This document shows positions 4,437-43,857 of a stretch of DNA of 64,000 nt, in pieces. The notes under the pieces are model-generated. The model had not been told where the DNA came from and made no database searches. It was given only the letters and a program-made list of their open reading frames with translations. The stretch covers positions 65,108-129,107 of the forward strand of contig JBMYRH010000002.1 of the NCBI GenBank assembly GCA_049602155.1, read 5' to 3'. Each line of letters opens with the position of its first letter. Position 1 is the stretch's first letter. Source of the stretch: Myxococcota bacterium. GTDB lineage: Bacteria; Myxococcota_A; UBA9042; PHBI01; JBMYRH01. The translations under genes were made by a program, and so were the position numbers.

Positions 4437-4453
4437 CAGGGCGAGAGGCCACT

Positions 4454-27707: not shown

Positions 27708-30700
27708 ATGCTGCATCGTCACCTCACCCTCTCCTGGCTCCTATGCTCTGCGCTAGGCACGTTGGGCGCGTTATCGGTCGCGGCCTGCGGCTCGATCGAC
27801 ATCCCGACCTCGACGGGGGGCTGTCAGACTGACTCTGACTGTGGCCAAGGGGCGGTCTGTGTCGAGGAGGTCTGCACGACCAGCAGCGAAGACACGGACC
27901 AGGATGGCCTGACCAACGGTATGGAGATGAACCTGGGCACAAACCCTGCCCTCGCTGACACCGATGGCGACGGTATCGATGACAAGGCAGAGATCTCCGA
28001 TCTCTCCGATCCGGCCGACAGTGATGGCGATGGTGTCATCGACGCCCTGGAGAGCAATGGGGGAGACAAAGACGAGGACTGCATTGCCGACCAGTTTGAT
28101 GCGAATGACGCCAGCGATACAGCCGTCGTCAAGAAGCTCGAGCTGTGCGCCCTTGAAGGGGTGTGCGCTGGTGACGTTCAGCCCAAGGCCGAGTGCGCCC
28201 CTGCGGCAGCCGCGGGGGATGAGCCGACATGGTTCTGCAGCTACGGGGGCGTCGTGGGCTACAACCCAGGACCGGACAATATGTGCGACGGCTTGGACAA
28301 TGACTGCGATGGCGTGGCCGACGAAGACTTTGTAGGGGCGGAGACAGAGTGCGGCGAAGGCGCTTGCGGTGCGACGGGGGCGATGACCTGTGTCGACGGT
28401 GTGGAGGTCGACGGGTGTGAGCCTTTGGCCGCAGAGTACCTCAACGATAAGACGTGCGACGGTATCGACGAAGACTGCGATGGTGAGACCGACGAGGAGT
28501 ACGTCGGACCAGACGGGTTCTGCGGCACCGGGGCGTGCACGAGGTCAGGGTCAAGCGTCTGCTTCAACGGCGTGCCGACCCTCGATTGCATCGAGGGGGC
28601 GCCAGCCGCGAATGATGAGACCTGCGACGGTGTCGACGATGACTGTGACGAGCTCATCGACGAGGACTTCGACGGCGCGACGACAACCTGTGGTTCAGGT
28701 GGCTGTCTGACGACGGGGAAGTACCAATGTCAGGACGGCGTTGAGATCGACGATTGCGTGGCGGGCACGGGGCTGCCGACGGACGCGACCTGCGACGGTG
28801 TCGATGATGACTGTGATGGCGAGACGGACGAGGAGTATGTGTCTGACTCCGGGCCGACCAGCTGTGGGGTGGGGGCCTGCGCCTCTGAGGGGACCTTGGT
28901 CTGCGTCGGTGGTGACGTTCAGGACACGTGTATCGTCGGGACACCAGGGGAGTCCGACACCTCTTGTGACAACGTGGACAACGACTGCAACGGTGAGACC
29001 GATGAAGGTTATGTCGCCCAGGAGACGAGTTGCGGTACCGGGAGCTGTCAGGCCTCGGGGCTGACGGCCTGCGCAGAGGGGATCATCCTTGATAACTGCG
29101 TGGCGCTCTCCCCGGAGACGGACCTCGATACGACGTGCGATGGCGTGGATGACAACTGCAACGGTGAGACCGATGAGGACTTCGAAGCGGGGGTGACCTC
29201 TTGCGGAAAGGGTGTCTGCGCCTCTGAGGGAGATCAGACGTGCCAGGCCGGGGTCATTGTGGACACGTGCAAGGTCGGAGAGGTCCTCGATGGTGAATTC
29301 GATGCCTCGTGCGACGGCGCTGATCAGGACTGTGATGGCAAGGTCGATGAAGGTTTTGTCTCCGAGGACACGAGCTGTGGAGAGGGCGTGTGCCTCGGCC
29401 TTGGGACCTCAACCTGTGTGGACGGGGTGCCTGGGGATACATGCATCGTCGGTGCGCCGGTCGGTCAGGTGGACGGCGAGTGCGACGATCAAGATCAAGA
29501 CTGTGATGGCCTCGTCGATGAAGACTTCGCCCCCGCCATTGTCGCTTGCGGCGCAGGGGTGTGCGCGGGCAGCGGAGTGACGAGCTGCAATGGTGGCGAG
29601 GTCGTCGACAGTTGCAGTGAGGGCGAAGGGCTCGCGATCGACGCGTCTTGTGACGGCGAAGACAATGACTGCGACGACGCCTTTGATGAAGACTACGCCT
29701 CCGTCGAGGTCACGTGTGGGCTCGGGGTGTGCGCCAAGACCGTGATGACGAGCTGCGTCCAGGGCAGCGAGATCTCGGACTGCGCTCCCTCCGCCCCGGC
29801 TGGCGCGGATGACTCGTGCAATGGCCTTGATGACGACTGCGACGGCGCGACCGATGAGGGCTTCTCCGTGGAGTCGGTGACCTGTGGCGTCGGTGCTTGC
29901 CAGTCGGTTGGCAACATTGTGTGCGTGGATGGGGTCGAGGAGAACACCTGCGAAGTTGGGTTCCCTGGACCGAATGATGCGAGCTGTAACGGCGTCGACA
30001 ACGACTGCGATGACGCCGTTGATGAGGACTTCCTGGTCACCGCGACCGCTTGCGGCGTCGGCGTGTGTGCAGCTGCGGGAGAGCGCGTCTGCAAGGAAGG
30101 GCAAGTCGCGGACACCTGTGCGCCGCTTGAGGCCACAGGCCCGGACATCACTTGCGACGGCCTTGATGACGACTGCGATGGCACGACCGACGAGGACTAC
30201 GTGACGTCTCAATCGATGTGCGGCGATGGCGCTTGTGCTTCCATCGGTCAGAGGACCTGTATCGGCGGGGTGGAGAATGACACGTGCGAGGCGGGGCAGC
30301 CGGCCTTGGCTGACGCGACCTGCGATGGGGTCGATGACGATTGCGATGGCACGGCAGACCAGGACTATGTGGCCTTCGAGACGACCTGCGGTGTCGGGGC
30401 CTGCGAGAGTTCAGGGACGATGGCGTGTGTCGATGGCACCCCCGTCAACAGCTGTGAGCCTGCGACGGCGGCCCCCTCCGACGTGACCTGCGATGGCGTG
30501 GACGACAACTGTAACGGTCAGACCGATGAAGAGTTCTCGACCGAGTCGATCACCTGCGGGACGGGAGCGTGCCTCGCGAACGGGACGCGGACGTGCTCAA
30601 ACGGTGCAACGGTTGATAACTGTGTGGAGGGGACAGCGGCCGCAAGTGACGCGACCTGTGACGGGGTTGACGATGACTGCAGCGGTGCCACCGATGAAGA

Positions 30701-33700
30701 CTACGTAGAGACGGTCACCTCTTGTGGTGACGGCGCCTGCGCGGCGGCGGGGGCGCTGATCTGCGTGGCCGGCGAGGAGACGAGCACCTGCGTTGAAGTC
30801 GAGCCAAATGCCACTGACGATGACTGTGACGGTGTCGACGATGACTGCAATGGGGAGACCGACGAGGGCTATGTCCCCCAAGACTTCCCATGCGGCGTTG
30901 GAGAGTGCGCCCGAGTTGGACAGACGTTCTGTCAGGGGGGCAACGAGCTGAATGATTGCAGCCCTGGAGCACCGGCTCCTGACGACTCTGACGACTGTGA
31001 TGGTAAGGACAACGACTGCAATGGAGACACCGACGAGGATTACGTCAGTCAGACGACGTCCTGCGGAGACGGTGTCTGCCAGAGTTCCGGGGTCACCTCC
31101 TGTGTCTCGGGACAGGTGCAGGACTCGTGTCAGGCTCCGACAGCCCCGGCGGGCGACACTGACAGTGATTGCAATGGCCTCGACAGCGACTGCGATGGTG
31201 AGATCGATGAGGGCTACGTCAGCGTCGAGGTCACCTGCGGGGCTGGAGTCTGTCAAAACACGGGACAGAAGGTCTGTCAGGGGGCTCCATCGTACGAGGT
31301 GAACACGTGCGAGCCGCTCACCACCACGTCGACCGCGGATTACGTCTGCAACGGCCTTGACGATGATTGTGATGGCGAGACCGATGAGGACTACGTGTCG
31401 GTGCAAACCGAGTGCGGAAAGGGGGTGTGTGCGACGACCTCGATGTCGGTCTGCGAGCCGTCTGCGACGGGCGGGCCGGCTGCGGGGCCTTCGGACAATT
31501 GTGTCCCACCGGAGCCCTCGACGACCGAGCAAGATGCGAGCTGTAACGCTGCCGACGATGACTGCGATGGCGAGACAGATGAAGGGTTCGTGGCGTCGAA
31601 CACCACCTGCGGTCTTGGTATTTGTAACAGCCAGGGGGTGACAAGCTGTGGCTCCGGTGGCGTGCAGCAAGACAGCTGCCAGCCCGGTAGCCCGACCTTG
31701 GCCGTCGACGGCACCATCGCGCTCGATGAGTGCGGGGGAGGGGACAGTGACTGCGACGGTGAGACCGATGAGGACTTCTTCCCGACGCAGCTGACTTGCG
31801 GTACGGGGACCTGCGCGATGACGGTGACGACCTCCTGCAGCTCGACAGGTCAGGTCAACGACTCATGCACGCCGTCGGGTGAGCCCTCGTGCGAAAACAA
31901 AGCGTGCGGAGATGATGGGTGTGGTGGCTCTTGTGGTGACTGCGCCGCGAATGAACTCTGTACCGCCAACTTTACCTGCCAGTGTGTCCCCAGTTGCCTG
32001 AACAAGGGGTGTGGAAGTGATGGGTGTGGTGGCACCTGCGGCGATTGCCCGAACCCCGATCCCTGTCAGGTGGGGGTGTGCAACTCTTCGGGGACCTGCT
32101 CGTTTACGAACCTCGAGGACTGGACGAGCTGCGATGATGGCTCGGATGAGACCATCGGAGACTTCTGTGCGTCAGGGACCTGCGTCGGCTACGTCTACAG
32201 GGACTTCCAGCCAGCAATCGTCGACAACGTGATTCAGTCAGAGCAGTTCGTCGACGCGAGCCGTCGGCTGGGTGGTGGCGTCCACGCGGTCTACACGAGC
32301 CGCGGCGGTAACCCCTTCACTGGAGAGACGTCGGCCGCCGTGATGCAATCTTGTATCGGAGGGCTCTCTTGTAGCACCCACGTACTCGGTCATGCGGGTG
32401 AAGCTCAAGCCGTCAGTCCGGTTTTCCAGCACGTGGGTGGGCAGAACAATGTCAGTGACGGCAAGACGCTCAGCCGCACCGTGAACTCGGGCTATGCGTT
32501 TGAAGGGAACCCGCTGCAAGAGGTCTGGCTTAACCAGTGGGACGAGGTCCCTAACATCACCGCGATCGCCGGCAAGGGGGATGAATGGGTCGCGGCGGCG
32601 TATATGACGGCAGATGGGAAGCTCGCTCCTTATCTCTGTACGGTTCAGTCGTGCGCCCTGAACAGCCCCCCCGCCGAGGTAAAGTATAGTGCGCCGGTCA
32701 GGATGCGTAACGTCGCGGGTGAGCCGGTCCTCGCGGTGAACCCTGAAAGCGAGAAGCCGATCCTGCTCGCCCATTCGGCATCCGCCGGCTGGCAGATTAC
32801 GCACCAGCTCGACACGGTGGCTCAGGTCTATGACTTTACCACTATCGTCGACTCCAACGGTTCGGAGTACCACATTGGCGTCGGACGTCTGGGCCTCCTC
32901 TTCTGGGGCTGGAAGGGCTCTACTGGGCTCATCACAGTCGATGACGGTTCCAACGATGGCTTTGGGCAGACGAAGATCTCGTTCTTCTCCGTCTCACGGT
33001 TTGGTGACTGGCTCGTCGCCTTTGGGCTCCATACGAGCGGTCAGTATGTGGTGGCGTATGCACCTTGGAGTTCAAAGGCGCAGGACGGCAATCAGTGGGC
33101 TATTCGTGGGACTAAGATATTCAACAAGGAGCCCATTCAGGCCTCTCGGATGCAGTCAGATAACGACGGGATCTACGTCTTCGGCACGGTGCCCTATGAG
33201 AGCGTGGATCAGCGCGCGATGTATTACGCCGGCGCTTACCCGGACTTCGTCGTCATCAATGAGAGCTTCAATTCGAGCTTCGCGCTGGCCTTCTGGGAGT
33301 CCTTTGTCAGTTGCTCTGAGACCGAATGGTCTTCGGAAGACAGCGCGGCGACCTTGAGTGGAGGCTGCTCCGATCCAGACTCGATTGAAGAGGAGCTGGA
33401 GCTCCCAGGCGCGTTACTTTGGAGGCCAATCGATACAGGGGAGCAGTTCACCCTGACCGTGACCGCGCGTGCCGACGACGATGACGGGTATGGTGTCACG
33501 TATGCGACGATGGACGAGAAGAACCACTACCGCGTCCGGCTGGACAAGCAGCGCGGCTCTGTGCGACTTGAACGGGTCTATGAGGGAGAGGTGGTGCTCC
33601 TCGCCGAGCGCACAGACGTCGATATCCCCATCAACGTGAACACCGAGATCATGGTAGAGCGCATCGGTCCCCTGCATATCGTGAGCCTCGACGGTCAGGT

Positions 33701-33815
33701 GATGTTCCAGGCGCAAGACAACCTCCTCGCGAGCGGCGGCGTGGGTTTCTTTGCGTGGGCGATGGAGTCGGTCAGCTTCCTCGACATTCACGTCACGCGG
33801 CCTACGGCGCCGTAG
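27708..33815 (+). CDS. Giant (2035 aa) secreted lipoprotein with TSP3-like Ca repeats, about 21 tandem MopE/LDL-receptor-A-like Cys-rich modules and a Cys-poor C-terminal domain
   Basis: The signal/lipobox is SVAACGS. The N-terminal thrombospondin-type-3-like repeats read DTDGDGIDD...DSDGDGVID. Roughly 21 copies of a 45-50 aa module follow, of the form CDG(V/L)D(D/N)DC(D/N)GxTDE(D/G)(Y/F)V...TCG.G.C...G...C..G...D.C. A CG(D/S)DGCGG(S/T)CGDC segment and then a 650 aa domain with few Cys follow. Confidence 0.8.
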   Translation: MLHRHLTLSWLLCSALGTLGALSVAACGSIDIPTSTGGCQTDSDCGQGAVCVEEVCTTSSEDTDQDGLTNGMEMNLGTNPALADTDGDGIDDKAEISDLSDPADSDGDGVIDALESNGGDKDEDCIADQFDANDASDTAVVKKLELCALEGVCAGDVQPKAECAPAAAAGDEPTWFCSYGGVVGYNPGPDNMCDGLDNDCDGVADEDFVGAETECGEGACGATGAMTCVDGVEVDGCEPLAAEYLNDKTCDGIDEDCDGETDEEYVGPDGFCGTGACTRSGSSVCFNGVPTLDCIEGAPAANDETCDGVDDDCDELIDEDFDGATTTCGSGGCLTTGKYQCQDGVEIDDCVAGTGLPTDATCDGVDDDCDGETDEEYVSDSGPTSCGVGACASEGTLVCVGGDVQDTCIVGTPGESDTSCDNVDNDCNGETDEGYVAQETSCGTGSCQASGLTACAEGIILDNCVALSPETDLDTTCDGVDDNCNGETDEDFEAGVTSCGKGVCASEGDQTCQAGVIVDTCKVGEVLDGEFDASCDGADQDCDGKVDEGFVSEDTSCGEGVCLGLGTSTCVDGVPGDTCIVGAPVGQVDGECDDQDQDCDGLVDEDFAPAIVACGAGVCAGSGVTSCNGGEVVDSCSEGEGLAIDASCDGEDNDCDDAFDEDYASVEVTCGLGVCAKTVMTSCVQGSEISDCAPSAPAGADDSCNGLDDDCDGATDEGFSVESVTCGVGACQSVGNIVCVDGVEENTCEVGFPGPNDASCNGVDNDCDDAVDEDFLVTATACGVGVCAAAGERVCKEGQVADTCAPLEATGPDITCDGLDDDCDGTTDEDYVTSQSMCGDGACASIGQRTCIGGVENDTCEAGQPALADATCDGVDDDCDGTADQDYVAFETTCGVGACESSGTMACVDGTPVNSCEPATAAPSDVTCDGVDDNCNGQTDEEFSTESITCGTGACLANGTRTCSNGATVDNCVEGTAAASDATCDGVDDDCSGATDEDYVETVTSCGDGACAAAGALICVAGEETSTCVEVEPNATDDDCDGVDDDCNGETDEGYVPQDFPCGVGECARVGQTFCQGGNELNDCSPGAPAPDDSDDCDGKDNDCNGDTDEDYVSQTTSCGDGVCQSSGVTSCVSGQVQDSCQAPTAPAGDTDSDCNGLDSDCDGEIDEGYVSVEVTCGAGVCQNTGQKVCQGAPSYEVNTCEPLTTTSTADYVCNGLDDDCDGETDEDYVSVQTECGKGVCATTSMSVCEPSATGGPAAGPSDNCVPPEPSTTEQDASCNAADDDCDGETDEGFVASNTTCGLGICNSQGVTSCGSGGVQQDSCQPGSPTLAVDGTIALDECGGGDSDCDGETDEDFFPTQLTCGTGTCAMTVTTSCSSTGQVNDSCTPSGEPSCENKACGDDGCGGSCGDCAANELCTANFTCQCVPSCLNKGCGSDGCGGTCGDCPNPDPCQVGVCNSSGTCSFTNLEDWTSCDDGSDETIGDFCASGTCVGYVYRDFQPAIVDNVIQSEQFVDASRRLGGGVHAVYTSRGGNPFTGETSAAVMQSCIGGLSCSTHVLGHAGEAQAVSPVFQHVGGQNNVSDGKTLSRTVNSGYAFEGNPLQEVWLNQWDEVPNITAIAGKGDEWVAAAYMTADGKLAPYLCTVQSCALNSPPAEVKYSAPVRMRNVAGEPVLAVNPESEKPILLAHSASAGWQITHQLDTVAQVYDFTTIVDSNGSEYHIGVGRLGLLFWGWKGSTGLITVDDGSNDGFGQTKISFFSVSRFGDWLVAFGLHTSGQYVVAYAPWSSKAQDGNQWAIRGTKIFNKEPIQASRMQSDNDGIYVFGTVPYESVDQRAMYYAGAYPDFVVINESFNSSFALAFWESFVSCSETEWSSEDSAATLSGGCSDPDSIEEELELPGALLWRPIDTGEQFTLTVTARADDDDGYGVTYATMDEKNHYRVRLDKQRGSVRLERVYEGEVVLLAERTDVDIPINVNTEIMVERIGPLHIVSLDGQVMFQAQDNLLASGGVGFFAWAMESVSFLDIHVTRPTAP
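28280..31850 (+). repeat. Array of about 21 tandem approximately 140-150 nt coding repeats (Cys-rich CDGxDxDCDGxTDE modules)
   Basis: The CDG(V/L)DDDCDGETDE(D/E)(Y/F) motif reiterates throughout the translation. The DNA is divergent enough to be ancient duplications. Confidence 0.8.
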
Positions 33816-34361
33816 GTGGCCGCCGGGACGACGATTGTTCGCTTCGACATCACGCTCTCTGATGTCGACCGGGGCGTCTACGACACGCTCGAGCTCCGCG
33901 TGGCTCAGCACCCCTCGGAGAGCGATAACTACCTGCTCACGCGTGTCCTCGCCTACGCGCTCGAGTTCGAGGACGACCTGAGCTTCTCCAAAGGGCTCAG
34001 CACCCCGGATGAGCCTGCCCTTTGGTCGCACGATCCGACCGGGGCCCTCACCCGCTGGATCGAGGTTGGGAACCCGAAGCCCGATCGGATCCACCGGGCA
34101 TCCAAGGCCTCACCCACGGTGCGCATCTACACCTACAAAGACCTGGACGTGTTGCGGCGGTCCATCGCCGGTAACCACATCCACCGCATCGATGAGATCG
34201 ACGTCGTCACCCTACCGGATGACGTCTTGGCACCGCTCGCCGCCAACCTTGGGCGCGCGAACACGTGGACGCTCCTGCGCTCTGACGGCGAACTCTACGT
34301 GACTGTGGGCGACGTCAACGTCTCCTGCCCTGTCCTCCCAGTGCCCTTGAGCGGTGACTGA
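33816..34361 (+). CDS. yaeQ: YaeQ family protein
   Basis: It matches YaeQ end to end: RFDITLSDVDRGVYDTLELRVAQHPSESDNYLLTRVLAYALEF...FSKGLSTPDEPALW...LTRWIEVG. It uses a GTG start directly after the upstream stop. Confidence 0.8.
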   Translation: MAAGTTIVRFDITLSDVDRGVYDTLELRVAQHPSESDNYLLTRVLAYALEFEDDLSFSKGLSTPDEPALWSHDPTGALTRWIEVGNPKPDRIHRASKASPTVRIYTYKDLDVLRRSIAGNHIHRIDEIDVVTLPDDVLAPLAANLGRANTWTLLRSDGELYVTVGDVNVSCPVLPVPLSGD

Positions 34362-34445
34362 GGGGTGCGACGCAGAACGCTCAACCTTGACAGGGCGCCC
34401 CGAATTCAGTCCGCTGTTGTTGGCTCCAAACGACGTGAGGTGGTC

Positions 34446-35858
34446 ATGAGTAAGAGAGCAGTTGGACGACACGCGTGGCGCTGGGCGGCTGTAGCCCTCC
34501 TCGCGCTCGGGGCTGTCGCCTGCGGAGACGACGGCGCTGGTGACGGCGTGAATGGTGATGGCACCGAAGCGGTGGACGGTAATGCGACCTCCGAGCCGAC
34601 TGGCGAGGGGCTGACAGGCGCCGTGGCGTTGGCCTCATGCGATTGCGGTGATGCCAGCTGTGGACTCACTGCCTGCGGTGAGACCTGCGGGCTGTGCACC
34701 GATGATGCGTCGCCGCTCTGCTGGGCTGGTCAGTGCACTAACCCCGAGGGGTGTGACATCGTCGGGTTCACCGACCCTATCGCCTGTGACAACGACACGT
34801 ACTGCACGCCCGGGCAGCAGCCTTACGCGCAGGCCGCGACGACCCCCTCGGTCGGTGGTGGTTTCAAGGTGAAGTATGCGGCGACGGTCGACGACTACTC
34901 CTTAGAGCTCGACCCAGTCATCGACGCGGATGCGCTGGCGGATGGGCGGCCTATCGCGAAGAAGAAGATCTATTTGGAGCTCAACCACGTCGGTCAAGCC
35001 GAGGCGGGGCGACCGCTCACAGGCACCTTCCAGCTCGGCACTGATGACGCTCGAGACGACTGCACCTACTGCGTCCGCGCAGGTACATACTGCAGCGACA
35101 AGGGCTGCGGCACGGACTACGTCGCCACCGAGGGCACCCTCGAGATCACGTCCTCAGGTGAGCCCGGTACACCGCTCGTCGCCACCTTGAGGGATGTACG
35201 GTTCACACAGGTCTATCTGCACCAAATCAAAGATGACGGCACCTACAAGGTGGCGGGCCAGAGCGCCAAGGTGTGGTGCTTGGGTGACTTCCCCATCGCG
35301 TACGATGTCCCCGAGCCGACTCAGCCAGTGAGCGACTGCGTGACCGAGGGCACTGGCGTGCTTCTCGGCGACAACATCAAGGACTACACGATTCAGAATT
35401 GCCTGGGAGATGAAATCACGCTGCACAGCAGGTGCGGTCGAACCAAGGCGGTCTGGGTAGTGGCCGTCGCTGGCTGGTGAGGGGCTTGCAACTCCTTCGT
35501 TCCGAAGGTCGCTAAAGCAAGTGAAGAAGCTGGACTCAACGACGAGTTCGAGTACGCCAACCTGGACTACATGATCGTCATCAGTGAAGACGGCGGAGGC
35601 AACGTGCCGACCCTGGCCTACTGCAAGCAGTATGCCGCGAGCCACAGCGCAGATATGGCCAAGACGTTTATCGACAAGACAGGTGGCATCACCTGGGGCG
35701 CCACGTTCGACGCGATGGACAACTACGCATCAGGAGGCATGGGGGTCCCCTGGAGTGGTCTGCTTGATGGTCGCTCTATGGAGTACATCATGAACGACTA
35801 CGCGGGTGAGGGATCGATGGACTCCAACATCCAGAAGCTCTTGGAAGAGCCCCTCTAG
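34446..35858 (+). CDS. Candidate selenoprotein: a lipoprotein whose N-terminal Cys-rich domain is fused to a TlpA/ResA-like thioredoxin-fold domain with active site W-U-G-A-C (in-frame TGA at 35478-35480)
   Basis: ORFs 34365..35480 and 35571..35858 share one frame and are separated only by a TGA. Read through it, the translation is ...DYTIQNCLGDEITLHSRCGRTKAVWVVAVAGW[U]GACNSFVPKVAKASEEAG...DYMIVISEDGG...AKTFIDKTGGITWGATFDAM...GVPWSGLLDGRSMEYIMND.... This aligns with TlpA/ResA (f.l.d..G..v.L....GK.v.vnFWAsWC.pC ... cis-Pro ... G.iv) across the stop. A SECIS-like hairpin follows. The start ATG at 34446 has a GAGGTGG RBS and a signal/lipobox of AVALLALGAVACGDD. Confidence 0.6.
35484..35522 (+). 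other. Putative bacterial SECIS-like RNA hairpin downstream of the in-frame UGA
   Basis: The RNA is UGA-GGG-GCUUGC-AACU-CCUUCG-UUC-CGAAGG-UCGCUAAA-GCAAGU. The lower stem pairs 35484-35489 with 35517-35522 (CUUGC/GCAAG plus a G-U pair). The upper 6-bp stem pairs 35494-35499 with 35503-35508, with a U-rich apical loop containing GU. The apical loop sits about 20 nt after the UGA. Confidence 0.45.
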
Positions 35859-35906
35859 GGGCCCTTGAGCTGTGCGCATCACTCGGTGAGAGGGGAGGGC
35901 GGCCTG

Positions 35907-38900
35907 CTACTGGCATCCCTCTTCATCGGTCTCACCATCGCAGTCATTGTCGAGGGCGTCGTCGCAGGTCTCGATGCTGTGCTCCGGGGCGGAGCCGTCT
36001 GGGTTGGTTGAGCACGTCCCGACGTTGGCGATTCCACACTCGACGATGCCCGCGCCGCAGACCCCGAGCCCCTCGCAGGCCTCGCCAACTGGCAGCCCCT
36101 GGTAGTTGATCCCGTTGTCGATGACGCCGTCACAGTCATCATCCACGCCGTTACACAGCTCTACCTCTGCTGGACCTTGCTCATTGGTGCAGACCAGCCA
36201 GAGCCCTGTAGGGCCGCAGCTCCACGACCCTGTCTGACACTGGTCGAGGTCAGGCCCGTCGCATGGAGCGCCCTTGAGGGGCAGATGCTCATCGGTGTTG
36301 CCATCACAGTCATTGTCTAGCTCATCACACATATCTTCGCTGCTCTGCCACCCCTCCAAGAGCTCGTAGTTGCACATCCAGCTGCCGTTCTCACAGGTGG
36401 TCACGTCGTTGACCCCCGTGCATACGCCGACCGCTGAGCACCCGGCGTCCTCGAGGTTCAACTCGGACAGCTCATCAGTCTCTCCATCGCAGTCGTCGTC
36501 GAGCGCGTTACAGGTCTCTGGCGAGGCCTGGTCACTGCTCCCGCCCTCCCCAGAAGAGCACCCTGGGGTCCCGTCAGGCAGACATTCGACTACCCCGGCT
36601 CCGCAGACGCCCACCGGGGGGCACGTCGCGCCGATCGGCAAATCGTTGAAGGCGAAGCCCTCGTCCGTCAGGCCGTCGCAGTCGTCGTCTACAGCGTTGC
36701 ATGACTCAGCGACGCTCTCGTCGTTGGCTCCACCGGGCCCCGTCGAGCACATCAGGCTGCCGTCACTGGGGTGACATTGGACCACTCCGGGGCCACAGGC
36801 TCCCTCACCGTCGCACGCTGCCCCGAGGGAGTGGCCGTCGAGGGTCAGGGCTTCGTCGGTTAACCCGTCGCAGTCGTTGTCTTGACCGTCGCACGCGAGC
36901 TCCACGATCTGGTGGTCGGGCACCGCGCTGTAGTCACAGACGATCCCTTCACCGTCGCAGAGCACGAGGATGCTCTCTGTTTGGCTACAGACGCCCTCCT
37001 GGAGACACCCTGCGTCGAGAGGAGAGATGTCGAGCTCGTCGGTGACGCCGTCGCAGTCGTCGTCGATGGCGTTGCAGGTCTCTACGAGGTCGGTGCTCGT
37101 CTCGTTCGCGCAGGTCGTCCCGCTGCCATCCGCGAGGCACGTCCATGTCCCCAAGGCACACGAGTCGGTGTCGTCTCCGTCGCAGGCTTCGCCGACGAGC
37201 CACCCCTCATCGGTGACCCCGTCACAGTCGTTGTCGAGCCCGTCGCAGAGGGTCTCTTCAAGCTGCCACTGTGGGACTGAGTCGAAGTAGCATAACCATT
37301 CACCAGCCTTGCACTCCGCGGCCCCATCGCTGCCCAAGCACACGCCCTGCTGACCGCAGAGGCTATCATTGATCCCCAGTCCTTCGTCGACGTGGCCATC
37401 ACAGTCGTTGTCTGAGCCGTCACACAACTCGGGGCTGGCTTGGTCGTCGACGCCCCCGGGATGGGTAGAGCAGATGGTGTCGTCGATGCCCCAGCACTGC
37501 ACGACGCCGAGTCCACAGGCTCCAATCCCTTCACAGGGTTGGCCAACGGGGAGGCCTTGATAGAAGAAGTTCTCGTCGACCGCCCCATCACAGTCATCGT
37601 CGCCACTGTTGCAGGTCTCGGGTACGGCCTGCGAGAAGGCCCCATCGGCGTGGGTCGAGCAGGTCGTCGCGCCGATGGCGTTGCACTGTACGATGCCTGC
37701 GCCGCAGAGCCCCTCGCCCTCGCAGACGTTGCCGAGCCCGATGCCCTTGTAGTGCACGCCCTCATCGGTCGCGCCGTCGCAGTCGTTATCCAAGGTGTCG
37801 CAGATCTCCGGCACCGAGGTCGGTGACTCGGGGCCGCAGACGAGGCCAGTCCCATCGGCGTTACAGACCATCACCCCAAATTCGCATTGATCACTGTCTG
37901 GTCCATCACAGGGCATGCCGAGGTCGAAGAAGACCTCGTCGATCTCCCCATCACAGTCGTCATCAAGGCCGTTACAGACCTCCTCTGCTTGGAACTTGTC
38001 GTTGATGCACAGCACCTGGACCGTCGAGGTCGCGCTGTCATGCACACACACCCACTCGCCTGGCGCGCACTCGGGGACGTCAGGCCCACAGCTGCCGATC
38101 TGCCCTGTCGGGTTGCCCTCGTCGATCTGACCGTCACAGTCCTCGTCGATATAATTACAGGCCTCTTTGGCCCACGGGTTCACCGTGTGATTCGTGTCGT
38201 TGCAGTCGACCCCCGTATGGAAGCCGTCACCGTCGTTGTCAGACACCGTCTCACAGGGCAAATCACCGCCGATGCAGTCTTGGTCGATGCCGTCGCTGCA
38301 CTTCTCAACCGCCCCAGGGTACGTGTGCGGGTCGGTGTCGTCGCAATCTCCTTGCCCCTCGGTGTAGCCGTCAGCGTCCAAGTCTGTCAGCGCACACGGC
38401 ATGACGATGCCGTCACAGTTGAGGTCGCAGAGTGTGGCACCCGCGGCCCCTAGCGCAGGGTCGCAGCACGGCTCAGGCGCGCCGGGATAGCGGGCAGCAT
38501 CTGTGTCGTCGCAGTCCCCTTCGTCAGCCGTCAGCCCGTCAGCGTCGAGGTCATAGAGTGGGCAAACGAACTCATCGGTGGCGCCGTTGCAGTCGTCATC
38601 GATGCCGTTGCAGGTCTCGTACAGGTTGGTCACCGTCTCATCGCTGCAGACCGTGCCGCTCCCATCGCCCAAGCAGACCCGGGTGCCGTTCGCGCACAGG
38701 TCCATGTCCGGGCCGTCACAGGCTTCTCCTAGTCCAGTGAAGGGCTCATCGATGCCGCCACTGCAGTCGTTGTCGATGCCATCGCACCGCTCGGGCTCGT
38801 AGAGGATCGCCCCCTGGCAGTGAATCGCCGCTCCGAATTGGTAATGCGTACAGACCATCTGACCGGACTGGCAGTACGCGTCACCCGTGCCACACGGCTG

Positions 38901-40562
38901 GCCAGCCTGGGGGTTGCCCTCGTCCGTGAGGCCATCGCAGTCGTTGTCCAAGTTATCGCAGAGCTCGGGCGCCCCCGGGTGGACCGAAGGGTTGCCCTCA
39001 TTGCAGTCCGCGGGAGGGATCCAGTCGTCATTATCCTTGTCGACGGCTGGGTTACAGACGATGTCGCCCCCTTGGCAGTCTTGATCGACACCATCGCCGC
39101 ACTTCTCCGGCGCGCCCGGGTAAATCGTGGCGTCGAGGTCGTTGCAGTCCTCAGGCGGGCAGCTTCCGTCGCCGTCCACGTCACAGCCGGCGCAGGCGAG
39201 GGCGGCGCCATCACAGTTCAAGTCGCAGCTGTCGAGGGACGCGTTAGCTGGGCAGCACGGCTCGGGTGCACCCTGATAGCTCGCGCTATCTGTCGGTGAG
39301 CAGTCGAGGTCATTAGGGACGCCATCACCGTCCCAGTCTAAGGAGTCGCAGTCCTCGTTGACCTGACCGTCGCAGTCGTTGTCCACGTTGTCCGCGCAGG
39401 TCTCGGCAGTCGCCAAGCCCAGCGTCGAACAAGTCGCTGTCCCGTCGGCGTTGCAGATAACCTCGCCGCCTTCACACTGGCCAACCCCGCAGAGTGAACC
39501 AAAGGCCAGCTGTTTGCCGTTCTCGATGTAGTAGGGCTGCTCGTCGATGAAGCCGTCGCAGTCGTTGTCGATGCCATCGCACAGCTCTGCAGTCGGGGGA
39601 TTGGCGCTGCACTTGGACCAGCCATCGAGCTGGCAGATCATGACGCCCGTGCACAGTCCGTCTGGGCCCTGGTTTTCACAGCCCAACGTGGCCCCCAAGA
39701 GGCCCTCGGAGCAGCTGCAGGACTGGGTCCACGGCATGCACTGGCCGTCATCCCCACAGTCAAAGCCCGTCGGGCAGTCACTGTTGCCGCCGCACGGGGC
39801 CCCGCAGAAGCGCTCTCCTTGTGCGTTCTCAAGGCACGCGGCGCCGAGGGTCGGGCAGTCAGCGTCTTGAGTGCAGGGGGTGCAGACACCTTCAGGGAAG
39901 TTGGCGCAGGCCGCACTCCCGTCGCCTTGTGGGAGGCAGATGAGCCCTGGTGCACATACGCCCGTACATGGGTCGTTCAGTTCAGGGAACTCCGACGCCA
40001 CAGCGTCTGCATCATCGGCGCTCTCGGTGTCCTCGACGTCCACCGCTACTTCGTCAGCGTCCGAGGTTCCCTCGTCGGTCGCATCGATGTCACCGGGGTC
40101 GTCCTCGACCTCTGTGTCGAGCGCCACATCGTCATCGGTCGACGCACTGTCAGAGTCCGCGTCGACATCGGCGGTGGCCGTGACGTCGTCGGTGACGTCC
40201 TGCGCCTCAACGTCTGATCCCATGTCACCGTCGACCGGCTGAAGAGTGTCCTCGGGTGCATCCGCGATGTCCGTCGCGGTCGTGATGTCCGCTGGGCTCC
40301 AGACTTCGGTCTGCGTGTCTGGGCTCTCTACATCCTGGGTGGTCGTCTCGGTGTCGCCCTCAGCCGATGCGTCGAAGTCGGCGCCCTCGCTGCTTTGACA
40401 GAGACCTGCCACACAGAGCAATGGCGGCGTGCATTGCTCATCGCTGATGCACGCCTCCCCCTGACCGACTTGGTTCATCGTGATGCGTGTACAGCTGCTC
40501 AGCCCCATCAGGAGGACGAGTGACAGCGACGGGGTTAGGGCCAAAAGCCTTCGTGAGAGCAT
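35907..40562 (-). CDS. Giant (1551 aa) secreted lipoprotein with an acidic N-terminal region and about 18 tandem MopE/LDL-receptor-A-like Cys-rich modules
   Basis: The signal/lipobox is LLMGLSSCTR. An acidic D/E/T-rich linker follows. The repeated modules are CDG(I/L)DNDCDGxxDE ... C..G.C......C. A 10-nt gap separates it from the upstream gene 40573..43788, which is probably co-transcribed. Confidence 0.8.
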   Translation of the reverse strand: MLSRRLLALTPSLSLVLLMGLSSCTRITMNQVGQGEACISDEQCTPPLLCVAGLCQSSEGADFDASAEGDTETTTQDVESPDTQTEVWSPADITTATDIADAPEDTLQPVDGDMGSDVEAQDVTDDVTATADVDADSDSASTDDDVALDTEVEDDPGDIDATDEGTSDADEVAVDVEDTESADDADAVASEFPELNDPCTGVCAPGLICLPQGDGSAACANFPEGVCTPCTQDADCPTLGAACLENAQGERFCGAPCGGNSDCPTGFDCGDDGQCMPWTQSCSCSEGLLGATLGCENQGPDGLCTGVMICQLDGWSKCSANPPTAELCDGIDNDCDGFIDEQPYYIENGKQLAFGSLCGVGQCEGGEVICNADGTATCSTLGLATAETCADNVDNDCDGQVNEDCDSLDWDGDGVPNDLDCSPTDSASYQGAPEPCCPANASLDSCDLNCDGAALACAGCDVDGDGSCPPEDCNDLDATIYPGAPEKCGDGVDQDCQGGDIVCNPAVDKDNDDWIPPADCNEGNPSVHPGAPELCDNLDNDCDGLTDEGNPQAGQPCGTGDAYCQSGQMVCTHYQFGAAIHCQGAILYEPERCDGIDNDCSGGIDEPFTGLGEACDGPDMDLCANGTRVCLGDGSGTVCSDETVTNLYETCNGIDDDCNGATDEFVCPLYDLDADGLTADEGDCDDTDAARYPGAPEPCCDPALGAAGATLCDLNCDGIVMPCALTDLDADGYTEGQGDCDDTDPHTYPGAVEKCSDGIDQDCIGGDLPCETVSDNDGDGFHTGVDCNDTNHTVNPWAKEACNYIDEDCDGQIDEGNPTGQIGSCGPDVPECAPGEWVCVHDSATSTVQVLCINDKFQAEEVCNGLDDDCDGEIDEVFFDLGMPCDGPDSDQCEFGVMVCNADGTGLVCGPESPTSVPEICDTLDNDCDGATDEGVHYKGIGLGNVCEGEGLCGAGIVQCNAIGATTCSTHADGAFSQAVPETCNSGDDDCDGAVDENFFYQGLPVGQPCEGIGACGLGVVQCWGIDDTICSTHPGGVDDQASPELCDGSDNDCDGHVDEGLGINDSLCGQQGVCLGSDGAAECKAGEWLCYFDSVPQWQLEETLCDGLDNDCDGVTDEGWLVGEACDGDDTDSCALGTWTCLADGSGTTCANETSTDLVETCNAIDDDCDGVTDELDISPLDAGCLQEGVCSQTESILVLCDGEGIVCDYSAVPDHQIVELACDGQDNDCDGLTDEALTLDGHSLGAACDGEGACGPGVVQCHPSDGSLMCSTGPGGANDESVAESCNAVDDDCDGLTDEGFAFNDLPIGATCPPVGVCGAGVVECLPDGTPGCSSGEGGSSDQASPETCNALDDDCDGETDELSELNLEDAGCSAVGVCTGVNDVTTCENGSWMCNYELLEGWQSSEDMCDELDNDCDGNTDEHLPLKGAPCDGPDLDQCQTGSWSCGPTGLWLVCTNEQGPAEVELCNGVDDDCDGVIDNGINYQGLPVGEACEGLGVCGAGIVECGIANVGTCSTNPDGSAPEHSIETCDDALDNDCDGETDEEGCQ
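35930..39600 (-). repeat. Array of about 18 tandem coding repeats (CDGxDNDCDGxTDE modules)
   Basis: Motif reiteration is visible in the translation. Confidence 0.75.
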
Positions 40563-40572
40563 TAACAGCGCG

Positions 40573-43500
40573 CTACTCGCAGTCTTCGATCGGTTGTGTC
40601 ATGCAACTCCCGACCACACACACGCCATCGAGGCAGGGGTCGTCTGTTGCACAGGGGTAGTTGGCCAGCACTTCGATGTCATCCAGGCGGATGTCGACCG
40701 CGCTCGCAGTCTCGGCCGCGAGGGACGCTTCGAACTGAGCGATCACAGGCCCGGCTTGGGGGGTCATGGGCAAGTCGAACTGTGTCCAATCTGCGGTCGA
40801 TTCACAGGCCACGGTCAACAGCGTTTGCCCGACGGTCACGGTCAACGTGTCATCGTCACAGCCCTCGTCTCCCACGGCCATGGAGAGCATAAAGCGGAGC
40901 GTCGCGCCGTCCGCAGGGATGTGGAACTCGGGGGTCTTCAAGCGCAAGACAACGGGCTCATCGACCCAGTCACTGGGGCCGGTAATGGCGACCGCGCTAG
41001 GGGCGGAGCTCGAGGAGGCCGTGTTGGCAGACCATGACCAGGCCGGGGCGCTCGTCTCTTGTGTCCAGCCCGGCGGGATGCCGAGGGACGTGATCCCATC
41101 AAAGTCGTCTCCGATGAGGACCTGCCCGTCATGCAGAGGCTCCGCCCAACACTCGCCCTCTTGGCACATGCCCATGGCGCAAGGGTTGCCTGTGTCGCAG
41201 ACCTTGGGTGTCCCCGTGCAGACCCCTTCGCTGCAGGCATCGTCGACCGTGCATAGGTCGCCGTCATCGCAGGCTTCGTTGTGAGCCGGGAACTGACAAC
41301 CGACCTCGCTGTTGCAGAGGTCGGAGGTGCAAGGATCGTCGTCATGGCACACCAGCGCTTGACCGACGCAGACGCCCTCGGAGCATTGGCCATCGGTGCT
41401 GCATGCATCACCGGTGTCACACGCCCCCTCGATGAAGATGGCCTCGCAGATACCGTCAACACATGAGGGCACTGCGCAGGGACCTAGGTAAGGGCAGTCG
41501 GATGCGATGTCACAGACGCAGACGTCTTGCGGGATGTTCACGCACCCCGTGTCGGGGGAGCACGCGTCCGCCGTGCAGGGGTCATCGTCGTCGCAGGCTA
41601 CCTCGGCCAGTTCGCATGAACCCTCTTGGCAGGTCTCGCCAGTGGTACAGATGTCGCTGTCGATGCACGAGAAGAGCGCGTCGATCTCGACGGCGTCGAT
41701 GGCCGCTCCGAACCCTCCGTTTTGCGTGTCATTCGCGATGAATCGGAAGGCGAGTTGCACGCGCAGGTTTCGGTAGGCAGAGAGGTCGACCACTTGGTCT
41801 GTCCACTCCGTCTGAGTCTGACAGACGAGCTGGAGCGGGGTGAAGATCCCGTAGGCCTGAATGCCCACCTGCAGTGCATCGGTGCCGCAGCCTGACTGGG
41901 CGAGGGCGGTGCGGACCTTGTAGCGCAGCTCAAGCTGCTCTCCGTAGACATGGAACCACGGGGAGCGGAGCCACGCCTCGACCGGGCCGTCGTAGTTGCC
42001 ATTGGGGCCTGTGACGACCATCCCGAGTCCGCCCTCTCCAGCGGCATACGCGCCACTGGGCTCCCAGATGATGTCCGGGTTGTCAGTCTCTGTGGTCCAG
42101 CCCTCCGGGTAGCCTTGATCGAAGGTGGCCTCCAAGAGCTGCTCACCTTCATCGAGCAGCTTGGTATAACAGCCGGTGTCCGTGCAGAGGTTGGCGGTGC
42201 ACGGGTTGCCGTCTTCGCAATCGACCGGGGTCGTCGCGCAGCTTCCATCGAAGCAGAAGCCGTCCACAGAGCATGGATCATCGTCGTCGCATTGGAGTCC
42301 ATCTTGCTGCTCCACCAGCGCGCATTCGCCCGTCTCTGAGACACAGATGTTCTGCATGCATGGGTGTCCGCTCTCTTCGCACGCGGGTACGCTCGTCATG
42401 TCGGGCGTACAGACGATTGGGAACACATCCACGCCGCAGTAGTAGTCTGGCGAGCACGGGTCATCGTTGTTGTAGGCCGCGCAGTCATCATCAACCTCGC
42501 ACTCACAGATGGAGGGCCCAGCTGTACATGCCCCACTCAGGCAGAAGTCAGCGTCAGTGCAGGGGTCCTCTAAGCTGCAGGGGCTTAGGTCGAGCACGGC
42601 CACAGACGCACACTTACCTGTGCTGCTCACGCACTGGTCGTCGGTGCAGGCGTTGTCGTCATTGCAGTCTTTCGGGGTCCCCGTGCACACACCTTCGACG
42701 CAGGCGTCGTCGATGGTGCATGGCTGCAAGTCGTTGCAGGTGCCCTCGACGGGTGCAAACACACACCCGCCTGTCTCGGCATCGCAGGTCCCCTCAGTGC
42801 ACGTATTGTCATCGACGCAGCTCACAGGGGTGCCAAAGCAAGAGCCATCCGCGAGGCAGGCGTCGCCCGTGGTGCACGCATCAGCATCGTCGCATGATGC
42901 ACCTTGGTCGACCTCGTGGACGCAGCCCCCGGCGTCTCGATCGCAGCTGTCGATCGTGCATGGATCGCCGTCATCACAGTCGATCTCGGGCCCGAGACAG
43001 GCGCCAGCGTCATCGCATTGCCCGGCGTCAACACAAGGATCGTCGGCGGCTGTACAGTCGGCGCCGTTGTTGATGGGCGCCGCGAGACACTCTCCACTCT
43101 CAGGGATGCATTCACCGACGGTGCAGTCTGAGTTTAATGCGTCGGGGCAGATGACGGTCTTCGTGACATCGAAGGCACAGGTGTAGTCGCCTTGGCATGC
43201 GAAGAGGCCCTCGCAACGGTCCTCCGGGTTGAGCCCCTCACAGTCGTCATCAGCGGTGCACTCACAGGCGTCGGTGGGGGCACCGACGCACAGTCCGGTC
43301 GCATCGCAGCTGTCCTCTTCCGTGCAGCCAAGGCCGTCATCGCAGGAGTTCCCCACCGCGATAGGGTAGTCACAGGCCCCTGTCTCCGGGACACAGAGGT
43401 CTGCCGTGCAGGGGTCTTCGTCGTCGCAGTCTCGCGCGACACCGCTGCAGCCGCCGTTGTTGCAGACGTCACCCGTCGTGCAGAGCAGACCATCGTCACA

Positions 43501-43788: not shown

Positions 43789-43857
43789 CCCTGGTGGCGA
43801 GCTTAAATGGAGAGATCTGTCCGACGTTTCACTCATAGCTTGAGTGTACCCAGCCGC

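What the first reader, a model, noticed from the sequence alone, without database searches (positions are those of the whole stretch)
34446..35858. In-frame TGA at the first active-site Cys of a TlpA/ResA-like redoxin, followed by a SECIS-like hairpin: candidate selenocysteine lipoprotein (W-U-G-A-C)
Two adjacent ORFs (34365..35480 and 35571..35858) share one reading frame and are separated only by a TGA at 35478-35480. Neither half makes sense alone, but translated across the TGA they form a complete thioredoxin fold. The beta1 strand AVWVVAVAGW precedes the TGA. It is followed by GAC, then the helix NSFVPKVAKASEE, a central beta strand YMIVISEDGG, a cis-Pro segment GVPWSGLLDG and the final strand. 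The TGA therefore sits exactly where TlpA/ResA/DsbE have the first Cys of WCxxC. Immediately downstream (35484-35522) the mRNA can form a two-tier hairpin, with a lower stem CUUGC/GCAAG and an upper stem CCUUCG/CGAAGG topped by a GU-containing apical loop. The apical loop lies about 20 nt from the UGA, which is the geometry of bacterial SECIS elements. UxxC/CxxU thioredoxin-fold selenoproteins are established in delta-proteobacteria. This fusion is distinctive: a lipoprotein signal, a 340-aa Cys-rich N-domain and a Sec-redoxin, sitting between giant Cys-rich surface-protein genes. An ORF caller would mis-annotate it as two truncated genes.
Basis: partly seen in the sequence, partly recalled or inferred. 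Interest (0 to 1): 0.85.

Follow-up and report, generated by a model that had tools for sequence, protein, structure and literature searches.

The report
Selenocysteine lipoprotein redoxin, split by annotation
Two adjacent "hypothetical" genes of a marine Myxococcota genome are almost certainly one gene for a membrane-anchored, thioredoxin-like enzyme whose catalytic residue is selenocysteine encoded by UGA; this is a real but fairly ordinary example of a well-known kind of marine selenoprotein.

Summary
ORFs 34446..35480 and 35571..35858 share a frame and are separated only by TGA 35478-35480. Read through, they give a 470-aa lipoprotein with the motif AGW-U-GAC.

- **TGA conservation:** thirteen further metagenome loci of the same ortholog group (52-95% aa identity, dS 0.5-3) keep TGA at this codon.
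- **Downstream coding:** they keep the frame open downstream. The 30 "intergenic" codons are under purifying selection (dN/dS 0.05-0.25).
- **Cys homologs:** three metagenome proteins and 17 Myxococcota/Bradymonadia genome loci have TGT/TGC there. All 97 full-length family representatives have W-C-x-x-C.
- **SECIS:** the predicted hairpin (35484-35522) exists. Its upper stem-loop is nucleotide-invariant and covers the longest run of frozen synonymous sites in the gene. Three other Sec lineages have different hairpins with G-containing loops.
- **Weak points:** hairpin energy is unremarkable, no compensatory changes were seen, and Rfam gives no hit.
- **Not testable:** selA, selB, selD and tRNA-Sec, because only 64 kb of the MAG is visible.

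UxxC Trx-fold selenoproteins are well known from marine metagenomes, so this is a new member of a known kind.

The parts
34437..34443 (+). Shine-Dalgarno-like GAGGTGG, 2 nt upstream of the ATG start
   Evidence: Read directly from the sequence. NCBI's 344-aa model starts at the same ATG.
34446..35858 (+). Complete recoded CDS: 470 codons (Sec at codon 345) plus TAG stop. Encodes a lipoprotein with an N-terminal Cys-rich beta domain and a C-terminal TlpA/ResA-like redoxin domain.
   Evidence: Translation. Orthologs keep the same frame and the same C-terminus. dN/dS is well below 1 on both sides of the TGA.
34446..34523 (+). Signal peptide with lipobox (…LGAVA-C26); Cys26 codon at 34521-34523
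   Evidence: The Cys is invariant in alignment A2 and present in 100 of 111 family members. A lipobox-like motif occurs in 86 of 111 members.
34620..35303 (+). Cys-rich, all-beta N-terminal domain of unknown function (approximate borders)
   Evidence: No Pfam or NCBIfam hit. The AF2 model of homolog P0010 shows a confident all-beta domain at residues 61-221. Borders were mapped to the window through alignment A2.
35337..35855 (+). TlpA/ResA/DsbE-like thioredoxin-fold domain, which spans the TGA (approximate start)
35478..35480 (+). In-frame TGA, proposed selenocysteine codon (U345), at the first position of W-U-G-A-C
   Evidence: TGA is conserved in 14 loci of the ortholog group. TGT/TGC is found at this codon in 20 Cys-form loci.
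35487..35489 (+). TGC, resolving Cys348 of the UxxC motif
   Evidence: Invariant in alignment A2 and in 97 of 97 full-length family members.
35484..35522 (+). SECIS-like two-tier hairpin. Lower stem GCUUGC/GCAAGU; upper stem CCUUCG/CGAAGG; loop containing GUU, 18 nt after the UGA.
   Evidence: RNAalifold consensus. TCC TTC GTT CCG AAG G is nucleotide-invariant in the 10 Sec loci aligned (in L054 only the first base, outside the stem, differs). It overlaps the longest run of codon-invariant columns in the gene. Cys homologs use other codons there.
35748..35750 (+). Codon of the conserved Pro in G-V-P-W, the presumed cis-Pro loop of the thioredoxin fold
   Evidence: Pro is present in 97 of 97 full-length family members. 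The cis conformation itself is inferred.
35571..35858 (+). The '95-aa ORF' annotated as a separate gene (ACPGU1_02175). It is in fact the C-terminal part of the same CDS and starts at an internal Met.
   Evidence: The 30 codons between the TGA and this ATG contain no in-frame ATG, GTG or TTG and have dN/dS 0.05-0.25.

Best explanation
Window 34446-35858 is a single gene for an extracytoplasmic lipoprotein thiol-disulfide oxidoreductase. Its nucleophilic active-site residue is selenocysteine (motif W-U-G-A-C).

**Shown:**
- The UGA at 35478 is conserved, and Cys occupies this position in homologs.
- The sequence downstream of the UGA is translated in the same frame.
- The C-terminal domain has the ResA/TlpA/DsbE fold.
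- A conserved lipobox is present.

**Inferred:**
- During translation, SelB carrying Sec-tRNA(Sec) binds the hairpin at 35484-35522 and delivers Sec to the UGA.
- The protein is then exported and lipid-anchored.
- Its UxxC pair reduces or isomerises disulfides of envelope or surface proteins, with Sec345 attacking and Cys348 resolving.
- The three giant Cys-rich (8-10% Cys) proteins encoded around it are plausible clients.

The gene belongs to a family of at least 600 clusters. Genomic members were found only in Myxococcota/Bradymonadia MAGs and unclassified MAGs. About a tenth of the closest clusters appear to be Sec forms, and these are scattered among Cys forms on the tree.
For: 1. **TGA conservation.** TGA sits at the same codon in the window and in L001-L008 and L013, and in L035, L037, L054 and L055. 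These cover 52-95% aa identity and come from independent JGI, ENA/TARA, NCBI and Logan samples.
2. **Downstream translation.** The downstream frame stays open to a conserved C-terminus. dN/dS is 0.05-0.25 for the 30 codons between the TGA and the next ATG, at dS 0.5-3. This is comparable to the flanking coding parts. That stretch has no in-frame start codon.
3. **Sec/Cys pairing.** P0010-P0012 and 17 genome loci have AGW-C-GAC encoded by TGT/TGC. All 97 full-length representatives have WCxxC.
4. **TGA is a normal stop here.** It ends 8 of 17 well-supported genes of the window, so the code is not reassigned.
6. **Hairpin.** A consensus two-tier structure is predicted. Its upper stem-loop is invariant at all synonymous sites. 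Only 20% of aa-invariant degenerate codons are codon-invariant gene-wide, and the longest run (6) lies at +3..+9.
7. **Other Sec lineages.** Three other Sec lineages of the family have different hairpins with small G-containing loops 15-26 nt after the UGA: L041 (GGU), L048 (AGUU) and L060 (GGU).
8. **Candidate Sec clusters.** 16 of the 150 best family representatives end exactly at the W before the catalytic residue. Orphan C-terminal fragments P0163 and P0178 also exist.
9. **Sec trait in the phylum.** Sec decoding is documented in Myxococcota: Anaeromyxobacter dehalogenans has 11 selenoproteins (PMC1794560).
Against: - No selA, selB, selD or tRNA-Sec lies in the 64-kb window. The rest of the MAG could not be inspected.
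- The hairpin is not thermodynamically unusual (z -0.46).
- No compensatory base changes are seen within the ortholog group.
- No Rfam family matches.
- Loose SECIS-like criteria are also met by 6 of 18 Cys forms (Fisher p about 0.03).
- The thioredoxin domain scores below the Pfam and NCBIfam curated cut-offs.
- The structure was modelled on a Cys homolog with 44-48% identity, not on the window protein itself.
- There is no experimental evidence of Se incorporation.
Confidence: 0.85

Rival explanations
1. Non-Sec recoding. The conserved UGA is read through by a near-cognate or suppressor tRNA that inserts Trp, Cys or Gly. The full-length protein is made but contains no selenium.
For: Readthrough and translation of the downstream part are shown, but the identity of the inserted residue is not. 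The Sec machinery is unverified. The hairpin statistics are weak.
Against: - The position is the catalytic Cys in all 97 full-length homologs. This is the classic Sec/Cys signature used to define bacterial selenoproteins (PMC1088965).
- Trp or Gly would inactivate the motif.
- Every Sec lineage examined has a hairpin with a G-containing loop just downstream.
- TGA works as an ordinary stop elsewhere in the window.
- Sec use is known in the phylum (PMC1794560).
Confidence: 0.07
2. Two real polypeptides. Translation stops at the UGA to give a 344-aa lipoprotein. A separate C-terminal fragment is made from ATG 35571, either by a split gene or by re-initiation, and the two fragments may assemble.
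For: Gene callers and PGAP annotate it this way. Sec insertion is usually inefficient, so a truncated by-product is likely to exist as well (general knowledge).
Against: - The 30 codons between the TGA and the ATG, including the resolving Cys and helix alpha-1, have no in-frame start codon.
- They are under purifying selection comparable to the rest of the gene.
- In homologs they are continuous with both halves.
- Without them, neither fragment would carry a complete active site or fold.
Confidence: 0.04
3. Pseudogene, nonsense mutation, or sequencing or assembly error in this MAG.
For: It is a single MAG-derived window. In-frame stops are common artefacts.
Against: The same TGA occurs in 13 other independently assembled loci from different projects, at synonymous divergence up to saturation. 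The downstream frame is intact and constrained.
Confidence: 0.01
4. Genome-wide reassignment of UGA (translation table 4 or 25).
For: None beyond the in-frame TGA itself.
Against: 8 of 17 Pfam-supported genes in the window end in TGA at the expected protein length. A scan of the window found no other credible in-frame TGA within a real gene.
Confidence: 0.01

Closest known systems
[quoted passage not shown] 2005 PMC1088965; Zhang & Gladyshev 2008 PMC2398784; Table 1 of PMC13188914)
   Same: - Sec replaces the N-terminal Cys of CxxC in a TlpA/redoxin-like fold.
- The source is marine.
- Abundant Cys homologs exist.
- A SECIS-like hairpin with a G in the loop follows the UGA.
- Fusions to unknown Cys-rich domains were already noted in GOS.
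- One GOS selenoprotein read (JCVI_READ_1091139219293...AADWUGAC...) matches this family's profile (hhalign 99%, E 5e-18).
   Different: - This lineage is a full-length lipoprotein with a roughly 230-residue all-beta Cys-rich N-domain.
- Genomic members were found only in Myxococcota/Bradymonadia MAGs and unclassified MAGs.
- No curated NCBIfam selenoprotein model hits it.
- GenBank still splits it into two hypothetical proteins.
- Whether it equals one of the named GOS families could not be decided, because the stored supplement is truncated.
ResA / TlpA / DsbE(CcmG) extracytoplasmic thiol-disulfide oxidoreductases
   Same: - The W-C-x-x-C position at the N-terminus of helix alpha-1 matches.
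- The Pro loop is conserved.
- The protein is membrane-tethered and extracytoplasmic.
   Different: - Sec replaces the first Cys.
- An extra N-terminal beta domain is present.
- The anchor is a lipid rather than a transmembrane helix.
- Sequence similarity is below the family cut-offs.
- No link to cytochrome c maturation genes is seen in the window.
Etrx1/Etrx2, surface-exposed lipoprotein thioredoxins of Streptococcus pneumoniae (PDB 2yp6, 4hqz)
   Same: It is a lipoprotein-anchored TlpA-like redoxin facing outward. It is hit by both the sequence profile (E 0.009-0.011) and by structure.
   Different: Etrx proteins are Gram-positive, Cys-based and single-domain, and they are paired with MsrAB. 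None of these features is seen here.
Bacterial SECIS elements (E. coli fdhF type; bSECIS consensus)
   Same: It is a hairpin inside the coding region immediately 3' of the UGA, with a small apical loop containing G(U) about 18 nt downstream.
   Different: There is no sequence similarity to known elements and no Rfam hit. SelB binding is untested.

Membership tests
Bacterial selenoprotein gene (criteria of Zhang et al. 2005, PMC1088965) | In-frame TGA conserved in at least two different sequences | tested here: met
   14 loci of the ortholog group carry it, as do three further lineages: L041, L048 and L060.
Bacterial selenoprotein gene (criteria of Zhang et al. 2005, PMC1088965) | At least two homologs with Cys aligned to the TGA, with conserved flanks | tested here: met
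   P0010-P0012, plus 17 genome loci with TGT/TGC. 97 of 97 full-length representatives have WCxxC.
Bacterial selenoprotein gene (criteria of Zhang et al. 2005, PMC1088965) | Sequence downstream of the TGA is coding in the same frame | tested here: met
   The frame stays open to a conserved C-terminus. dN/dS is 0.05-0.25 immediately after the TGA.
Bacterial selenoprotein gene (criteria of Zhang et al. 2005, PMC1088965) | SECIS: a stem-loop immediately 3' of the UGA with a small apical loop containing G | tested here: inconclusive
   The structure is present and is the alifold consensus. Its upper stem-loop has frozen synonymous sites, and analogous hairpins occur in 3 other Sec lineages. Against this, there are no compensatory changes, the energy is ordinary, 6 of 18 Cys forms pass similar criteria, and Rfam gives no hit.
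Bacterial selenoprotein gene (criteria of Zhang et al. 2005, PMC1088965) | The genome encodes selA, selB, selD and tRNA-Sec | not testable with these tools
   None lies in the 64-kb window. The trait exists in the phylum (PMC1794560).
Bacterial selenoprotein gene (criteria of Zhang et al. 2005, PMC1088965) | Selenium shown in the protein (75Se labelling or MS) | not testable with these tools
   This requires an experiment.
TlpA/ResA/DsbE-like thioredoxin-fold oxidoreductases (cd02966; Pfam Redoxin/AhpC-TSA clan) | Thioredoxin fold with N-terminal beta-hairpin and central insert | tested here: met
   [not shown]
TlpA/ResA/DsbE-like thioredoxin-fold oxidoreductases (cd02966; Pfam Redoxin/AhpC-TSA clan) | W-C-x-x-C active site at the start of helix alpha-1 | tested here: met
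   W-U-G-A-C aligns to the WCGVC of 2ls5_A and the WCGPC of 2yp6_A. Here Sec stands in place of the first Cys.
TlpA/ResA/DsbE-like thioredoxin-fold oxidoreductases (cd02966; Pfam Redoxin/AhpC-TSA clan) | Conserved cis-Pro loop facing the active site | tested here: inconclusive
   The Pro of G-[LIV]-P-W is invariant in 97 of 97 members and precedes beta-4 in the model. Its cis geometry and contact with the active site were not measured.
TlpA/ResA/DsbE-like thioredoxin-fold oxidoreductases (cd02966; Pfam Redoxin/AhpC-TSA clan) | Score above the curated family threshold (Pfam or NCBIfam) | tested here: not met
   Thioredoxin_9 scores 18.2 bits (cut-off 25), Redoxin 16.7 (26.6) and Thioredoxin 15.6 (23.5). 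ResA NF002854 scores 19.8 bits against a cut-off of 170. It is therefore a structural relative and a divergent family of its own.
Bacterial lipoprotein | Signal peptide ending in a lipobox with invariant Cys | tested here: met
   The window has ...LLALGAVA-C26-GDDG. The Cys is invariant in A2 and present in 100 of 111 family members, and a lipobox-like motif occurs in 86 of 111. No dedicated predictor was run.

The most novel reading that the evidence does not exclude
The W-[U/C]-x-x-C lipoproteins would be a redoxin family specific to Myxococcota and Bradymonadia. They would be dedicated to keeping the disulfide-rich giant surface proteins of these bacteria folded; here, three genes with 8-10% Cys flank the redoxin gene. 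The N-terminal beta domain would serve as the client-binding module. Selenocysteine would have been gained or lost many times within the family as an adaptation to working outside the cell in oxic sea water. That would make this an extracellular selenoenzyme system with identifiable substrates.
Probability: 0.15. Interest if true: 0.55.

Novelty: new member of a known kind. Interest (0 to 1): 0.4.

Why it matters
**Annotation.** Two "hypothetical proteins" (ACPGU1_02170 and ACPGU1_02175), and at least 16 protein clusters truncated in the same way in public databases, should be merged into single Sec-containing genes. No curated model currently does this.

**Biology.**
- It adds a lipid-anchored, two-domain redoxin to the list of exported bacterial selenoproteins.
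- It indicates Sec use in uncultured marine Myxococcota.
- It offers a family in which Sec and Cys forms alternate on a fine phylogenetic scale. That is useful for asking when selenium pays off.

The genomic neighbourhood gives a testable guess at substrates. None of this changes current understanding of Sec decoding.

Tried and rejected
- **Rfam scan.** A permissive scan of 35300-35700 gave only two chance lncRNA hits and no SECIS family.
- **Single-sequence folding.** The hairpin is not more stable than in shuffles.
- **Energy or feature discrimination of Sec versus Cys forms.** The first script was too crude. The refined one gave only 4/4 versus 6/18.
- **Sec machinery.** ARAGORN found no tRNA in the window or in 24 loci. 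A Pfam scan of 20 large ORFs found no SelA, SelB or SelD. An attempt to walk beyond the window through the Dam-methylase gene failed because the exact protein is not on record. I did not run a SelD, SelA or SelB search of the protein database. A distant (E. coli) query would fill the 8000-candidate limit with close relatives and would not reach this MAG.
- **Other selenoproteins in the window.** A scan for further in-frame TGA genes returned 64 open-frame pairs, typical of 64% GC DNA. None but this one had a redox motif inside a real gene.
- **Structure.**
  - A 13-sequence alignment gave a poor model with pLDDT 55.
  - A 111-sequence alignment worked.
  - The afdb50 library was unavailable, so the N-terminal domain fold remains unclassified.
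- **GOS supplement.** I searched it for this family's motif. There was no exact match in the truncated file, and only one related read.
- **Genome scan.** The genome-collection scan found only Cys forms at 26-41% identity. One of its two search patterns required a Cys codon, and the window's own species is apparently not among the representatives.
Full report
**1. The observation**

- An ORF ends with TGA at 35478-35480. A second ORF (35571..35858) lies in the same frame.
- Translation of 34446-35858 gives a 470-codon product with a single internal stop, in the context ...RTKAVWVVAVAGW*GACNSFVPKVAKASEE...
- The likely start is ATG 34446, preceded by GAGGTGG. It is not the upstream GTG at 34365.
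- An exact-sequence look-up shows the window comes from a GenBank MAG named 'Myxococcota bacterium', on a contig of 388,036 bp. The two pieces are annotated there as separate hypothetical proteins: ACPGU1_02170 (MGB0588462.1, 344 aa) and ACPGU1_02175 (MGB0588463.1, 95 aa).

**2. Is the TGA real and conserved?**

A database search with the readthrough protein returned two kinds of hit.
- Nine clusters (P0001-P0009, 52-95% identity) all end ...AVWVVAVAGW.
- Three longer proteins (P0010-P0012, 41-44% identity) continue through AGW-C-GAC into a full C-terminal half.

I fetched the DNA behind the truncated clusters. Every locus (L001-L008, L013) has TGA at this codon. In each, the same frame stays open to a conserved C-terminus, or to the end of the contig.

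A pattern scan of JGI metagenomes for V-A-G-W-TGA-G-A-C added four more loci of the same ortholog group (L035, L037, L054, L055). It also found two divergent family members that carry TGA, L041 and L048.

The Cys-form homologs use TGT or TGC at this codon.

**3. Is the downstream part translated?**

The 30 codons between the TGA and the next ATG are what gene callers treat as intergenic.
- They contain no in-frame ATG, GTG or TTG.
- Their dN/dS is 0.05-0.25 at dS 0.5-3, comparable to the segments upstream and downstream.

Even the closest relative (92% aa identity) differs at about 0.65-0.7 synonymous substitutions per site. The TGA has therefore been kept over long evolutionary distances. This rules out a pseudogene, a sequencing error and a simple two-gene arrangement.

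TGA terminates 8 of 17 well-supported genes in the window, so the genetic code is standard.

**4. What is the protein?**

- *Sequence models.* These give only sub-threshold thioredoxin, redoxin and ResA hits around the site.
- *PDB profile search.* A profile of the family finds TlpA-like PDB chains, with the best E-value 0.003. The alignment has the typical pattern G..DftL....G..v.L....G..vv...A.WCG.C...P, which places the TGA on the first Cys.
- *Structure model.* The readthrough sequence could not be submitted for modelling, so I modelled the natural Cys homolog P0010. A shallow alignment gave a poor model.
- *Exhaustive profile search.* This found 605 family representatives, 111 of them with E <= 1e-30.
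- *Better model.* With 111 of these sequences the model reached pLDDT 90.2 and pTM 0.81.
- *N-terminal domain.* The N-terminal region of about 170 modelled residues is a confident all-beta domain with no sequence-family match.
- *Conserved residues.* The lipobox Cys occurs in 100 of 111 members. Both active-site positions, the Pro of G-[LIV]-P-W and a further Cys (AYCKQY) are essentially invariant.

The protein is therefore a lipid-anchored, extracytoplasmic, two-domain TlpA-like redoxin.

**5. The SECIS question**

Evidence for function:
- *Frozen nucleotides.* The stretch TCC TTC GTT CCG AAG G is identical at the nucleotide level in the 10 Sec loci aligned. In L054 only its first base differs, and that base lies outside the stem. 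The neighbouring codons vary synonymously.
- *Gene-wide comparison.* Only 20% of amino-acid-invariant degenerate codons are codon-invariant. The longest such run, six codons, lies at +3..+9 after the TGA.
- *Cys homologs.* They encode the same FVP(K/Q)V peptide with other codons.
- *Other Sec lineages.* Three independent Sec lineages with different peptide sequences each have their own hairpin with a small G-containing loop. These are L041 (GGU, 23 nt after the UGA), L048 (AGUU, 15 nt) and L060 (GGU, 26 nt).

Evidence that limits the claim:
- No compensatory substitutions are seen.
- The stability is ordinary.
- Rfam gives no hit.
- One third of the Cys forms also pass loose criteria.

I regard the element as a probable SECIS, not a demonstrated one.

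**6. Family picture**

- *Truncated clusters.* Among the 150 best 50%-identity representatives, 16 end exactly at the W before the catalytic residue.
- *DNA checks.* One of the 16, P0154, was checked at the DNA level in locus L060. It shows TGA, then P-G-C, and 121 further conserved codons. Another, P0166, ends on almost the same sequence as the Sec locus L041.
- *Orphan fragments.* Orphan C-terminal fragments such as P0163 and P0178 fit the same split by gene callers.
- *Tree.* In a neighbour-joining tree, the 14 truncated forms included in the alignment are scattered among Cys forms in one half of the family. The tree has no support values. The pattern suggests repeated Sec/Cys exchange, as described for other redox selenoproteins (PMC1794560).
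- *Taxonomy.* All 17 genomic hits are MAGs. Most are labelled Myxococcota, Myxococcales or Bradymonadia, and the rest carry no finer classification. All 17 are Cys forms.

**7. Context**

The gene follows a YaeQ gene in the Sec-ortholog loci where the upstream gene could be identified (an upstream ORF of similar length is present).

In the window it lies inside a block of three giant secreted or lipoprotein genes with 8-10% Cys, carrying MopE, TSP3 and Dicty_CTDC repeats. Giant genes farther away are Cys-poor.

Large Cys-rich ORFs lie within 7 kb of family members in 9 of 21 loci. There is no background control for this count.

This suggests, but does not show, that the redoxin services these disulfide-rich proteins.

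**8. What could not be done**

- The Sec machinery could not be checked, because only 64 kb is visible. It holds no tRNA and no SelA, SelB or SelD.
- The one attempt to extend the view failed.
- Sec decoding does exist in the phylum: Anaeromyxobacter has 11 selenoproteins (PMC1794560).

**9. Comparison with what is known**

UxxC selenoproteins with thioredoxin, Prx-like, redoxin or TlpA-like folds are among the most abundant selenoproteins of marine metagenomes. Fusions with unknown Cys-containing domains were already reported (PMC1088965, PMC2398784; catalogue in PMC13188914).

One GOS selenoprotein read (…AADWUGAC…) matches this family's profile. No curated NCBIfam selenoprotein model covers the family, and GenBank mis-annotates it.

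**10. Verdict**

- The finding is real and correctly interpreted.
- It is a new member of a known kind.
- It has moderate interest as an annotation fix, as an exported selenoprotein in marine Myxococcota and as a Sec/Cys-switching family.
- It has no mechanistic novelty.

Noticed in passing
window 27708-43872: The redoxin gene sits in a block of three giant Cys-rich (8-10% Cys) secreted or lipoprotein genes. These are 27708..33815 (+, MopE and TSP3_bac), 35907..40562 (-, 9 MopE repeats) and 40573..43872 (-, Dicty_CTDC). Giant genes at 9.5-23.9 kb have only 0.5-1.3% Cys. They are possible clients of the redoxin.
   Followed up: partly
window 33816-34361; L001-L004: A YaeQ-family gene lies directly upstream of the selenoprotein gene, here and in the ortholog loci where Pfam data exist. 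An upstream ORF of similar length is also seen in L005, L006 and L008. Its GTG start abuts the stop of the 2035-aa giant gene, which suggests co-transcription.
   Followed up: partly
window 35442-35477: Codon-level invariance also occurs upstream of the UGA in the Sec orthologs. There are runs at -12..-10 and -6..-4, and a rare GTA Val codon at -7 is kept in most loci. This could be mRNA context for recoding, or it could be chance.
   Followed up: no
L041 (TGA at 1092 of the reverse-complemented contig), L048 (TGA at 2655), L060 3240-3242: Three further, divergent family members carry in-frame TGA at the catalytic position: UGACDSEV..., UGACSASS... and UPGCAQYV... Each has its own downstream hairpin. 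In addition, 16 database clusters are truncated at the same W.
   Followed up: partly
L048 N-terminal region; window about 32.0-32.2 kb (within gene 27708..33815): The short N-domain of the L048 Sec form contains CEDKTCGDDGCGGSCGAC. The same motif occurs in the C-terminal part of the 2035-aa giant protein of the window (CENKACGDDGCGGSCGDC). The window redoxin has a related segment, CGLTACGETCGLC.
   Followed up: no
L011 about 4414-4470: L011, one of the closest Cys-form homologs, keeps an almost identical hairpin (CCUUU-GUCCC-GAAGG) after its TGC codon. This fits either a recent Sec-to-Cys change or a pre-existing structure that could be co-opted.
   Followed up: no
window 35619-35621 (Cys393, in AYCKQY): A third Cys inside the thioredoxin domain is conserved in 96 of 97 full-length family members. 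The Cys of 'NCLG' before the beta-hairpin is conserved in 108 of 111. These may form a structural or regulatory disulfide.
   Followed up: no
window 7185-9470, 54036-55007, 61477-62364: Unrelated genes noted in passing: a dCache-HAMP adenylate/guanylate cyclase, an FHA-GGDEF diguanylate cyclase and a Dam-type N6-adenine methyltransferase.
   Followed up: no
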